From assembly GCA_012026655.1 (NCBI GenBank), contig JAAILG010000387.1:1-64000 (forward strand): 64,000 nt of DNA, written 5' to 3'. Below, piece by piece: positions 1 to 3,000 of this stretch. The position numbers were made by a program. Origin of the DNA: Hydrolagus affinis (Eukaryota). Position 1 is the first letter of the stretch. Every line of letters begins with the position of its first letter.

Positions 1-3000
1 GTCTGTGTATGTGGGGTGTGTGTGGGGAGGTGTGTGTGTATGTGGGGTGTGTGTGTGGGGAGGTGTGTATGGGAGGTGTGTGTATATGGGGTGTGTGTGT
101 GTGTGCGCGGAGGTGTATGTGTGTGTGGAGGTGTGTGTGTGGGGAGGTGTGTGTATGTGGGGTGTGTGTGTGGGGAGGTGTGTATGGGAGGTATGCGTAT
201 ATGGGGTGGGTGTGTGTATATGGTGTGGGTGTGTGTATGTGGGGTGGGTGTGTTTGCGGAGGTGGGTGAAGCCTGGGATTCTAAGGTCTCAGTCTGGGCT
301 GTTAGAAAATAAAACAAATCAAATTTTTTTTTGCTCTATTTATTACGTGTTATTATTACACTCTGTCCTCTCTGTCTCTCTCACTCAATGCGGCTGTAAG
401 TCAGTTGTGTTGTGGTTGTACAATGGTTGTGTTTGCGTAGATGTTAATTTGCTTGGCAATATTAAATATTAAACGACACAATTTTTGTTGTTTGCAGATC
501 TCAACAAGCCGTTGGCTTTAGAGGTGTCGTTTTTGCCGTTGACCTCGAGTCGTGACCAGTCTCTGAATCATGAACCCCAATGATTTTGTTGTGATTCCGG
601 GCAACAAGTCTGGCAGCTCTGTTAAGTTGAAAGCAAGGCAAAGGCATTTTTGCTCGGGGGGTGTGGGGGGTGGGGGGGAAATAACTATAAATAGGCCAGC
701 CATTCGATTGAGCGGCTGGCCTATTTTTAATAATCATCATAATAATAATCCTTGCATTTGATACAGCGCTTTTCATGTCTTCTGGACGTCTCAAAGCGCT
801 TCACAGAAAATACTGTAAAGTGAATTGACTGTATATTTGTGGGCGAAACACTGCAGCCAATTGCATACAGCAATGTCCCACAAACAGCTGTGGATTGAAA
901 TGACCAAATTATTATAGTTTTTTTTGACGTACGTTTTATTATTAGGCATGTGTGTGGAGTAAGGAAACTTGCCCGAGGTTTTGCTCTGACCTGCCTGGAT
1001 TCGAAACATAGGTCCCACGCTTGCAAGGCGAGTGCTCTAACTACTGTGCTATGGGACTCCCGCATTTCCTTCCTGAGGAGCATTTTAAGATTCAACCATG
1101 ACTGTAGTGTGGAATAATTGTCATATGATAGCTTGATAACAACAACAACAAAATTACAATTGTATAGCATCTTTCACGTCAGGAGGACATCCCAAAATGC
1201 CTGGGAAAAACAGTAAGGAGATAAATGAACTGTGCGTCAACCTGTCTCTTAGTGAACCGAGCTAAAGGAAGAAGGTTAGAGAGGACAAGCAGGAAGTATT
1301 CCTGATCTGGTACCTTGACTGTGCTGTCACTGCTTCCAGTGAAAAGCCTTGTCTCAGTCTCATCCAGTGCCATCGTGGTGATCTCAGCAGTCCCGTGACA
1401 TTCAGTGAACTGCTTCACTTTCTGACCGGTTTCAATCATCCAGACGATAACAGTGGATCCAGTGTCCGCACTGATAACCTGCAAATATAACACAAACTTG
1501 GTTAAATAATAATCATAATAATGATAACAATAATAATAATAATCCTTGCATTTGATATAGCGCTTTTCACATCTTCTAGACGTCTCAACGCGCTTTACAG
1601 AATATACCGTAAAGTTAATTGACTATGTTTGTGGGCGAAATGCAGCAGCCAATTGCGTACAAATAATCCTTGATTTGGACAGTGACCAGCAAAGGATGGC
1701 AGATTTCCCTTCTCTGAAAGACGTCAGTAAATTGGTCGGGCTCTAGGACAATTGCCGCCCTTTATGGCAATTTTTCTGGCGTTCGATCAAATTCACCCTT
1801 TTATTTTCAATTTAGGTCACTCGGCGTTTCGAACCTAGAGCTTTTTGGTTACCTCCTGGATGTCTGGCCGGGTTTTCACGTCTGTGCGGATCATAAGAAT
1901 TGTAGATTTCTCAGCTTTTTTAGAATAATTACTACAGTAACATTCACTCGACCAAATCCACTGTGAAAGGATTATGTATTCCATGGACCGAAAAACAATT
2001 TGGTGCAGTGTTTTTTTTTATCCCTTCAGCCCTGTCATGGAAATGTTAAAAAGACAAGTGTCTCAAGTGAGTTAATTAGTAACTCTTGTATCATGTAGCT
2101 ATTGGTGTACTGCAAAGTCCCTCTTAAAAAAGACAACAACTCTTCTACTCTGCAAATCTACCCACGTATGAACACGTTCATCCGGCAGTTGTGAGGCTGT
2201 TTTTTTTTGACTGCTCATGTTGTTCATGTTTCTTTACTCCACACACACGCCTAATAATCCCTCAAAAAGAAACAATAATAAATTGGTTATTTCAATCCAC
2301 GACTGTTTGTGGGGACGCCGCTGTGCGCAATTGGCTGCCACGTTTCGCCCACAAAATGTACAGTCAATTCACTTTACAGTATATTCTGTGAAGCGCTTTG
2401 AGACGTCTAGAAGACGTGATAAAGGCGACTGTATCAAATGCAACGATTATTATTATTACATACGTTGTCGTCTTCAATTGTCTGCCTTTAGGAATCTTCG
2501 GGAGCTCAAACTGGAAACCGTGCAACTGGAGCTGGACAGTGGAGTGATGGAACAGAGATTGCATCAGCTTCGACAGGTCATGAGCAGAGAAAAGAAAGAA
2601 AGAGAGTAAGTGGCAGTGACACATGCAATAATATCTTGCATGCGACTATTGCAACATTTGAACAAACAAGCGCAATTCCAGTAAGATTCTACAGAATACC
2701 TAAACCCACCTCCACCCCCCTTTTTTTTCCCCTGCTCACAGAGTCCTGCACTTTTCTGTCAAGGCTCAGGCAGCCACGATTGATGTTTTGGGGCTTTGAT
2801 GGATTGCTTCCAATCCAATTGCGGAAAGGTGCATTGCTTTATTTAGTTCTAGTCAGCTGAAGGCCCTGACTTCCGAACTATGAATTGGCTACCGCGCTTC
2901 GCCCACAAAATATACAGTCAGTTCACTTCAGAGTAAATCTAGTCTGTGAAGCACTTTGGGATATCTCGAAGGTGTGAGAAGGCGCTGTGGAAAAAAATGG

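What the first reader, a model, noticed from the sequence alone, without database searches (positions are those of the whole stretch)
1314..1478. Intact lone WDR49 exon nested antisense inside the first coding intron of ZBBX
Seen: a 165-nt, phase 0-0 exon with a canonical acceptor (tttgcag) and donor (AAG|gtac), no stops, encoding a WD40 repeat, lying between ZBBX coding exons 1 and 2 on the opposite strand and bracketed by minus-strand SINE and L2 pieces. Known (recall): in human 3q26, WDR49 is a near neighbour upstream of ZBBX in the same orientation and does not overlap it. If this were a whole antisense gene, its upstream exons should lie at higher coordinates, but I could recognise none in the remaining 62 kb. 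Inference: (a) a recent inverted exon duplication or capture from the neighbouring gene, (b) real interleaved antisense genes or unusual splicing, or (c) a SINE-mediated misassembly.
Basis: partly seen in the sequence, partly recalled or inferred. Interest (0 to 1): 0.78.

Follow-up and report, generated by a model that had tools for sequence, protein, structure and literature searches.

The report
Lone WDR49 exon inside ZBBX intron
A single, intact exon of the cilia gene WDR49 (CFAP337) lies backwards in the first coding intron of its neighbour ZBBX in a relative of the elephant shark; it is most likely a stray copy or an assembly slip, not a working gene.

Summary
Window 1314-1478 (minus strand) is a 165-nt, stop-free, phase 0-0 exon with an AG acceptor and a GT donor. 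It matches residues 458-512 of Callorhinchus milii WDR49/CFAP337 at 87% identity. Any other WD40 protein scores at most 45 bits, against 71-99 bits for WDR49 relatives. It lies between ZBBX coding exons 1 (570-637) and 2 (2492-2605), which are on the plus strand. ZBBX runs to about 40012.

A profile of five WDR49 orthologues finds no other WDR49 exon in the window. The window is not human and not C. milii. It is a relative of C. milii, with ZBBX exons 48-100% identical.

Being bracketed by SINEs means nothing here, because the window holds 47 further matches to that SINE. The exon has changed no faster than the working C. milii exon. So it is either functional or a recent copy.

No single inversion gives the order ZBBX1(+), WDR49(-), ZBBX2(+). 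A small piece must have moved, in the genome or in the assembler. My odds:
- real orphan copy: about 0.45
- misassembly: about 0.27
- truly interleaved genes: about 0.08

The window alone cannot decide between them. Interest is low to moderate.

The parts
1314..1478 (-). WDR49/CFAP337 exon: 165 nt, 55 codons, phase 0-0, about 1.3 WD40 repeats, equivalent to residues 458-512 of C. milii WDR49
1479..1504 (-). 26 nt of upstream intron-like flank: pyrimidine-rich tract ending in the AG acceptor. Unique in the window.
1211..1313 (-). About 103 nt of downstream intron-like flank starting with the donor gtacca. Unique in the window. No similarity to the next WDR49 residues (FNGHCHHKLNAG...).
1129..1210 (-). 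3'-terminal fragment of a second SINE-like repeat with a (TTG)n tail; 12 such 3' ends in the window.
1505..1662 (-). 5'-truncated copy of the tRNA-derived SINE (3' part). Its 36-nt (ATT)n-like tail abuts the exon's upstream flank.
723..1067 (-). Full-length tRNA-derived SINE copy
570..637 (+). ZBBX coding exon 1 ([22 protein letters not shown] + 2 nt), 23 of 23 residues identical to C. milii ZBBX. The inferred donor is GC, not GT.
2492..2605 (+). ZBBX coding exon 2, 95% identical to C. milii ZBBX
570..40012 (+). Extent of ZBBX coding exons in the window (at least 16 matched exons, B-box at 5735-5839 and 6530-6625)

Best explanation
The piece is a genuine genomic-type fragment of WDR49/CFAP337: one internal exon with about 26 nt and about 100 nt of its own intron flanks. 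It sits alone and inverted in ZBBX intron 1. I read it as a recent, short (roughly 0.3-0.55 kb) duplicative insertion copied from the nearby WDR49 gene. That would be a local templated or inverted insertion at the DNA level, or less likely a LINE-driven copy of unspliced pre-mRNA primed at the SINE-like 3' end that lies 100 nt downstream of the exon.

As it stands it does nothing. 55 residues are 1.3 blades of a beta-propeller and cannot fold alone. The fragment is on the wrong strand to enter ZBBX mRNA. It has no partner exons to splice to.

Shown: the identity of the exon, its intactness, its isolation within 64 kb, its position and strand, and its normal rate of change.

Inferred: that a second, parental copy exists in the true WDR49 gene; that the copy is recent; and the copying mechanism.
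For: 1. **It is WDR49 and nothing else.** Among 155 proteins compared, the 20 WDR49-family rows give 70.9-99.4 bits in a single stretch, and the best other WD40 protein gives 44.7 bits. This follows an exhaustive phmmer of 1.84 billion representatives.
2. **It is alone.** 1 of 3457 ORFs matches the WDR49 profile. In tblastn with five orthologues, every other hit has E >= 0.62. The one recurrent weak hit, 56086-56009, carries an in-frame stop.
3. **Similarity ends at the splice sites.** The orthologues continue with ...VWDFNGHCHHKLNAG and the window does not. The fragment therefore came with intron flanks and was not spliced.
4. **No acceleration.** There are 7 of 55 differences from C. milii. 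With ten outgroup sequences, the window is derived at about 3 positions (4?, 30, 52) and C. milii at about 4 (7, 11?, 30, 39). A long-neutral copy should have many more changes, so the copy is young or the exon is functional.
5. **The order needs a small piece to move.** ZBBX exon 1 (+), WDR49 exon (-), ZBBX exon 2 (+) within 2 kb cannot be made by one inversion of a WDR49-then-ZBBX arrangement. A piece of at most 1.85 kb has to have been inserted (reasoning coordinates).
6. **The genes are close neighbours elsewhere.** In cattle the order is WDR49, SERPINI2, ZBBX without overlap (passages of PMC6558954). They are listed together on one chromosome in a teleost (passage of bioRxiv 10.1101/2023.11.21.567991). 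In three sharks both proteins come from contigs of the same length.
7. **The sequence is continuous here.** The region is gap-free; the only N run is 46 kb away.
Against: No parental copy was seen, because no tool here holds this genome. The exon could therefore be the only copy.

An intact frame, canonical AG and GT sites and a normal rate of change are just what a working exon or a misplaced working exon would show.

The two old, diverged repeats abut the unique 307 nt directly. Either they were copied along with it or the fit is a coincidence.

The 9-nt direct repeat TTGTTATCA (minus strand) would bracket a 379-nt insert ending in the repeat's (TTG)n tail. It is not significant: the same search gives repeats of 9 nt or more at 2 of the 11 other such repeat ends.

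55 residues give the rate comparison little power.
Confidence: 0.45

Rival explanations
1. Assembly artefact. The only WDR49 copy of this exon, flanked by SINEs at its true locus, was threaded or gap-filled into a SINE-rich stretch of ZBBX intron 1. In the animal the exon sits in WDR49, and ZBBX intron 1 is shorter.
For: The unique piece is short (307 nt) and is bounded on both sides by low-complexity SINE tails, (AAC)n at 1137-1151 and an (AAT)n-like tail at 1505-1545. Such places are where assemblers and gap closers go wrong. The exon looks fully functional. The assembly is a scaffold with at least one 100-N gap. A piece from the neighbouring gene is what a local mis-threading would pick up.
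Against: 47.9 kb around the exon has no N. The flanking SINE copies are old and diverged: at most 89% identical to any of the other copies in the window and 86% to each other. Nothing in the window is similar enough to collapse, though copies outside the window are unseen. ZBBX exons 1 and 2 stay in correct order and strand around the piece, so the error would have to be a clean internal insertion.
Confidence: 0.27
2. Truly interleaved antisense genes. This is the working exon of the one WDR49 gene, which runs on the minus strand through ZBBX. Its upstream exons lie beyond 64000 (or in the gap) and its downstream exons lie left of the window.
For: Intact frame, AG/GT sites, a plausible branch point and pyrimidine tract, and constraint-like conservation. 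A SINE tail 26 nt from the acceptor is no obstacle, since ZBBX exon 2 has one about 31 nt from its acceptor.
Against: No other WDR49 exon in 62.5 kb upstream. That would need an intron about nine times longer than the longest ZBBX intron here, which is about 7.1 kb. The genes do not overlap in cattle. The + - + order of ZBBX1, WDR49 exon and ZBBX2 cannot arise by one inversion. The ZBBX promoter and exon 1 would have to sit inside the next WDR49 intron.
Confidence: 0.08
3. A sub-case of the best explanation. The fragment is an RNA-mediated copy: a LINE reverse transcriptase primed on the (TTG)n tail of the SINE-like 3' end lying in the WDR49 intron. It copied back through the unspliced exon and inserted about 379 nt into the (ATT)n tail of a SINE in ZBBX intron 1.
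For: On the minus strand the order is: SINE tail, TTGTTATCA, 26-nt flank, exon, about 100-nt flank, SINE-like 3' end with (TTG)n, TTGTTATCA. Removing the insert leaves a 12-nt (ATT)4 tail, which is in the commonest size range among the 41 tails listed. Tail-into-tail insertion is seen right next door: a SINE 3' end at 1662-1685 is followed at once by the truncated SINE.
Against: The 9-mer is low-complexity, and equally long repeats turn up by the same search at 2 of 11 control ends. The other copies of the repeat show no clear target-site duplications. An internal SINE tail in a pre-mRNA is not a normal template end.
Confidence: 0.1
4. Relic of a broken or rearranged WDR49 gene that is being lost in this lineage.
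For: The exon is isolated.
Against: There is no stop, no frameshift and no excess of changes. WDR49/CFAP337 is conserved from starfish to sharks.
Confidence: 0.03

Closest known systems
WDR49 / CFAP337 (axonemal protein with two WD40 propellers, beside CCDC96/113 and inner dynein d)
   Same: The 55 residues align end to end with residues 458-512 of C. milii WDR49 (87%), with shark CFAP337-like proteins (78-80%) and with a starfish CFAP337-like protein (73%). The family description comes from passages of bioRxiv 10.1101/2023.05.31.543107. That WDR49 and CFAP337 are one family rests on the source names.
   Different: Only one exon of a protein of about 1000 residues is present. No propeller can be formed, and no other exon lies within 64 kb.
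Unprocessed (duplicated) pseudogene fragments / orphan exon copies
   Same: Intron flanks are kept, there are no neighbouring exons, and the fragment sits near the presumed parent gene.
   Different: It is not disabled: no stop, no frameshift, splice signals kept. The parental copy was not seen.
Nested or interleaved antisense gene pairs
   Same: An exon of one gene lies on the opposite strand inside an intron of another.
   Different: In known nested pairs the whole inner gene or its terminal exons lie in the intron. Here a mid-gene exon lies alone, and the host's exon 1 would lie inside the guest's next intron.
Processed retrocopies
   Same: A possible tail-primed insertion with a 9-nt flanking repeat.
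   Different: Introns are not removed. Homology stops at the exon borders, there is no poly(A), and the flanking repeat is not significant.

Membership tests
WDR49/CFAP337 (orthologous exon) | Best single-stretch similarity is to WDR49 orthologues, at the collinear position | tested here: met
   The 20 WDR49-family rows score 70.9-99.4 bits; the best other WD40 protein scores 44.7 bits, among 155 proteins compared. The long members align collinearly with C. milii WDR49.
WDR49/CFAP337 (orthologous exon) | WD40 repeat signature | tested here: inconclusive
   All 13 Pfam hits are WD40/propeller models, but all are below their curated cut-offs (PF00400: 22.3 bits against 27). This is expected for 1.3 repeats.
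WDR49/CFAP337 (complete gene) | Two WD40 propellers plus a coiled coil, encoded by a run of exons | tested here: not met
   1 of 3457 ORFs in the window matches the profile. The rest of the gene, if it exists, is outside the window.
Interleaved/nested antisense gene pair | Other exons of the antisense gene on both sides, on the same strand and in order | tested here: not met
   None in 62.5 kb upstream. Only 1313 nt are available downstream, with none there.
Interleaved/nested antisense gene pair | Transcripts that splice this exon to other WDR49 exons | not testable with these tools
   No RNA-seq for this genome is available here.
Unprocessed duplicated gene fragment | Intron flanks retained; similarity stops at the exon borders | tested here: met
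Unprocessed duplicated gene fragment | A parental copy elsewhere in the same genome | not testable with these tools
   No collection here holds this genome. Genome contigs covers bacteria and archaea only and was not used.
Unprocessed duplicated gene fragment | Disabling changes or relaxed constraint | tested here: not met
   No stop or frameshift. About 3 derived changes against about 4 in C. milii. This fits only a young copy.
Processed retrocopy | Similarity continues across exon junctions; poly(A); target-site duplication | tested here: not met
   Similarity stops at the junctions. There is no poly(A). The 9-nt repeat is no better than the controls, where 2 of 11 reach it.
Assembly artefact | No read spans the junctions; near-identical repeats at the joins | not testable with these tools
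   No reads are available. Within the window the flanking SINEs are at most 89% identical to other copies, which says nothing about copies elsewhere.
ZBBX (host gene) | B-box zinc finger, and collinear similarity to named ZBBX proteins | tested here: met
   PF22586 at 30.9 bits against a cut-off of 27. 213 hits, the best 120 listed, nearly all the named ones ZBBX or B-box proteins. At least 16 collinear exon matches.

The most novel reading that the evidence does not exclude
The exon is the single working copy, and WDR49/CFAP337 in this holocephalan-like fish really runs antisense through ZBBX, so that two motile-cilia genes are physically interleaved. The ZBBX promoter and exon 1 would sit in one WDR49 intron and the rest of ZBBX in the preceding one. 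Expression of each gene would then be coupled to transcription through the other.
Probability: 0.08. Interest if true: 0.55.

Novelty: new member of a known kind. Interest (0 to 1): 0.25.

Why it matters
If the fragment is real, it is a clean, datable example of a single exon with its splice signals being dropped into a neighbouring gene. That is the raw material of exon shuffling, although here it is on the wrong strand to be used by the host. It would also mislead gene predictors into calling a spurious antisense WD40 gene or a chimeric WDR49 model.

If it is an assembly error, it marks a spot to repair: WDR49 in this assembly would lack residues 458-512 at its own locus.

Either way it has little bearing on cilia biology. 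Only the unlikely interleaved-gene reading would say something about how these two co-expressed cilia genes are regulated.

Tried and rejected
1. **Upstream exon at 56086-56009 (minus strand).** This was a recurrent weak tblastn hit, seen with 4 of 5 orthologues at E 1.1-9.5. The alignment has an in-frame stop and lies beside a SINE. It is chance.
2. **Processed retrocopy.** Rejected, because the similarity stops at the splice sites. The V and D read after the donor and the Q before the acceptor are what a GT donor and a CAG acceptor give in frame.
3. **Target-site duplication.** The 9-nt TTGTTATCA repeat is not significant against the controls, 2 of 11.
4. **Terminal inverted repeats of a DNA transposon around the exon.** All the long inverted pairs in 600-2500 are SINE copies in opposite orientation.
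5. **'The window is C. milii and this is a diverged paralogue.'** Rejected. ZBBX exons are only 48-100% identical to C. milii ZBBX, so the 87% is ordinary between-species divergence.
6. **A ZBBX C-terminal exon (35672-35911) as a search query.** It found nothing: 132 candidates, none scoring. Shark ZBBX proteins do match it in tblastn (39-53%), so this was a failure of the word-based search.
7. **PDB sequence search with the exon.** It gave 13 generic WD40 chains, the best being the designed protein Tako8, and none named WDR49 or CFAP337.
8. **Other genes at 40-64 kb.** I read through 80 non-repeat ORFs of 55 aa or more and saw nothing that looked coding. None of them was searched against any library.
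9. **ZBBX as a whole.** ZBBX was searched exon by exon only.
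Full report
**What is there**

On the minus strand, window 1478 to 1314 reads as 55 codons with no stop: [55 protein letters not shown]. It is preceded by ...ttgtgttatatttgcag and followed by gtaccagat. The exon is 165 nt, phase 0 at both ends, with an AG acceptor behind a pyrimidine-rich tract and a GT donor after AAG. 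The donor lacks the usual G at +5, so by my reading it is canonical but not strong.

Pfam sees only WD40/beta-propeller models: 13 families at E<=1, the best being PF25173 at 2.4e-05 and PF00400 at 1.9e-04. All are below their cut-offs, as expected for about 1.3 repeats.

**Which gene**

The word-based search of named proteins returned 6 proteins at E<=0.01 among 22 candidates:
- Callorhinchus milii WDR49: 87% identity over all 55 residues
- three shark proteins named WDR49-like or CFAP337-like: 78-80%
- a starfish CFAP337-like protein: 73%
- one unnamed 140-aa protein: 73%

An exhaustive phmmer against 1.84 billion representatives gave 3748 hits at E<=0.001. Its top ranks are long proteins with many repeats, whose 8-15 weak stretches add up. 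I therefore re-scored the 150 listed hits plus the proteins (155 proteins) by their single best stretch. That splits them cleanly: 20 rows score 70.9-99.4 bits (55-87% identity), and everything else scores 44.7 bits or less. The long members of the first group align collinearly with C. milii WDR49 over hundreds of residues. So the refuting outcome 'best hit is a different WD40 gene' does not occur. The exon corresponds to residues 458-512 of the 1001-residue C. milii protein, in the middle of the gene.

CFAP337 is described as a protein with two WD40 propellers and a coiled coil that sits by CCDC96/113 and inner dynein d in the axoneme (passages of bioRxiv 10.1101/2023.05.31.543107). A PDB sequence search with the exon gave 13 generic WD40 chains and none named WDR49 or CFAP337.

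**Host gene and species**

- The plus-strand ORF 6476-6670 carries a B-box above the Pfam cut-off (PF22586, 30.9 bits against 27).
- A 40-residue contiguous translation around that exon found 213 proteins, of which the best 120 are listed. Nearly all the named ones read ZBBX, zinc finger B-box domain-containing protein 1 or B box-type protein. The best is a C. milii entry at 91%.
- tblastn of the C. milii protein and three elasmobranch ZBBX proteins maps collinear exons from 570 to 40012 on the plus strand.
- Coding exon 1 is 570-637 and exon 2 is 2492-2605, so the WDR49 exon lies antisense in the first coding intron, 638-2491.
- Per-exon identity to C. milii ZBBX is 100, 95, 91, 81, 86, 91, 80, 73, 70, 48, 75, 75 and 78%, against 39-91% for the elasmobranch proteins.
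- The window is therefore neither C. milii nor human. It comes from a fairly close relative of C. milii; I infer a holocephalan.
- The 87% identity of the WDR49 exon is thus ordinary between-species divergence and not a sign of a diverged paralogue.
- ZBBX was searched exon by exon only.

**Is it alone?**

Yes, within the window.
- tblastn with five WDR49 orthologues gives one significant hit each (E 3e-25 to 3e-21), and nothing else better than E 0.62.
- A profile HMM of the five, run with all filters off against all 3457 six-frame ORFs of 12 aa or more, gives this ORF at E 1e-32 and the next at E 1.
- A weak hit that recurred at 56086-56009 has an in-frame stop.
- The window would share roughly 80% or more with C. 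milii WDR49, so any further exon of 20 residues or more should have been seen.
- One 100-N run (47890-47989) was left untouched and could in principle hide sequence.

**Type of fragment**

The similarity to the orthologues ends at the two splice sites. The orthologues go on with VWDFNGHCHHKLNAGRD, which is highly conserved, while the window reads VPDQEYFLL. This is an exon with its own intron flanks, not a piece of spliced mRNA.

A self-comparison of 600-2600 against the window shows that 1198-1504 is unique.
- To its left lies the 3' end of a SINE-like repeat with a (TTG)n tail, at 1129 to about 1210. Twelve such ends occur in the window.
- To its right lies a 5'-truncated copy of a tRNA-derived SINE, at 1505-1662.
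- A full copy of that SINE lies at 723-1067.
- That SINE has 47 further matches in the 64 kb, 14 of them near full length.
- Eleven of its heads reach Rfam's tRNA cut-off.
- A fifth of the window (19.9%) is repeated within the window.

Being bracketed by SINEs is therefore expected by chance. Even the working ZBBX exon 2 has a SINE tail about 31 nt before its acceptor.

**Rate of change**

Of the 7 differences from C. milii, ten outgroup sequences polarise them as follows:
- The window keeps the outgroup residue at positions 7, 39 and probably 11.
- C. milii keeps it at 52 and probably 4.
- Both have changed at 30.
- Position 50 is ambiguous.

That gives about 3 derived changes in the window lineage against about 4 in C. 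milii, whose exon is part of a full-length gene model. The less constrained ZBBX exons have dropped to 70-80% between the two species. A copy that had drifted freely for long should therefore show many more changes, and probably a stop or a frameshift. The exon is either functional or a recent copy of a functional one. With 55 residues this is a weak test.

**How the arrangement could arise**

The order ZBBX exon 1 (+), WDR49 exon (-), ZBBX exon 2 (+) lies within 2 kb. No single inversion of two neighbouring genes produces it. A piece of at most 1.85 kb carrying the exon has to have been put between ZBBX exons 1 and 2, either in the germ line or by the assembler.

WDR49 and ZBBX are close neighbours in other vertebrates:
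- Cattle chromosome 1 has WDR49 at 100.68-100.79 Mb, SERPINI2 at 100.79-100.83 Mb, then ZBBX, without overlap (passages of PMC6558954).
- A croaker preprint lists Zbbx and Wdr49 together on one chromosome (passage).
- In three sharks both proteins come from contigs of identical length.

The search for both gene names found 13 papers. The 12 listed are expression, GWAS or selection lists, and none addresses an overlap, judged from titles and abstract starts.

**Verdict on mechanism**

1. **Real, recent, short duplicative insertion from the neighbouring WDR49 gene (about 0.45).** The result is an orphan exon without function: it has no partners, it is on the wrong strand for ZBBX, and 1.3 propeller blades cannot fold.
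   - Within this reading I considered an RNA route. On the minus strand a 9-nt repeat, TTGTTATCA, brackets a 379-nt unit that ends in the (TTG)n tail. Removing the unit would leave an ordinary 12-nt SINE tail.
   - The same search finds repeats of 9 nt or more at 2 of 11 control ends, so this remains an idea and not a result.
2. **Misassembly through SINE tails (about 0.27).**
   - For it: a fully functional-looking exon, a short unique piece between two low-complexity tails, and a scaffolded assembly.
   - Against it: 47.9 kb without a gap, and flanking SINEs no more than 89% identical to any other copy in view.
3. **Truly interleaved genes (about 0.08).** This needs an intron of more than 62.5 kb where the longest ZBBX intron is about 7.1 kb, plus the same small-piece move.
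4. **Relic of a dying WDR49 gene (about 0.03).**

The remainder of the probability is unassigned.

**What stayed unchecked**
- Copy number of the exon in this genome.
- The structure of the true WDR49 locus.
- Read support across the junctions.
- Transcription and splicing of the exon.
- Nucleotide-level dN/dS against a parental copy.

No tool here holds eukaryotic assemblies or reads. The closed collections (viral and metagenome contigs) and the bacterial/archaeal genome collection were not used, and no supplementary files were consulted.

**Novelty and interest**

This is a new instance of a known kind of thing (an orphan exon copy or gene fragment), or else an assembly flaw. It is a tidy oddity and worth a five-minute check by whoever holds the assembly, but not a surprise to a specialist. 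Interest is 0.25.

Noticed in passing
window 636-645 and 2485-2495: ZBBX coding intron 1 seems to be a GC-AG intron. To keep the frame KLKAR|NLRELK that C. milii and the sharks share, exon 1 must end ...GCAAG at 637, and the intron then starts gcaaag. The nearby GT (gttaagt at 621) would give the wrong phase.
   Followed up: partly
window 1-290: The window opens with about 290 nt of degenerate TG-rich tandem repeat (units such as GGGGTGTGTGTG / GGAGGTGTGTAT), just upstream of the ZBBX 5' region.
   Followed up: no
whole window, e.g. 17160-17231, 47175-47246: A tRNA-derived SINE with (ATT)n tails is very dense: 47 further matches to the 350-nt copy at 723-1072. Eleven heads score above Rfam's tRNA cut-off, and two are called tRNA-Val(TAC) by ARAGORN. 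These are SINE heads, not tRNA genes.
   Followed up: partly
window 1662-1685 next to 1505-1661: A short SINE 3' end (...ccaaatcaaggatt + ATT) is followed at once by the 5'-truncated SINE. This suggests that new copies insert into the tails of older ones.
   Followed up: no
window 47796-48341 and 62138-62494: Copies of another repeat, whose translation reads like ...LRS...FK.HLKT..., lie on both sides of the only N run (47890-47989) and near 62.3 kb. The 3' end of this family seems to be the SINE-like piece found 100 nt from the WDR49 exon (copy 62302-62590).
   Followed up: partly
window 15741-15941: A stretch matches C. milii ZBBX residues 333-403 at only 48%, while neighbouring exons match at 70-80%, and it has no match in the three elasmobranch proteins. 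It may be a fast-evolving or lineage-specific exon, or retained intron in the C. milii model.
   Followed up: no
window 1700-1900: The unique part of ZBBX intron 1 to the right of the exon is comparatively rich in CpG and holds a GACGTCA (CRE-like, recalled motif) at about 1720. I did not test whether this is a promoter, a conserved element or an unrecognised repeat.
   Followed up: no
window 40100-64000: Downstream of the last ZBBX exon (about 40012) I saw no convincing coding ORF among 80 non-repeat ORFs of 55 aa or more. Repeat content rises to 26-32% after 48 kb. None of these ORFs was searched against a library.
   Followed up: partly
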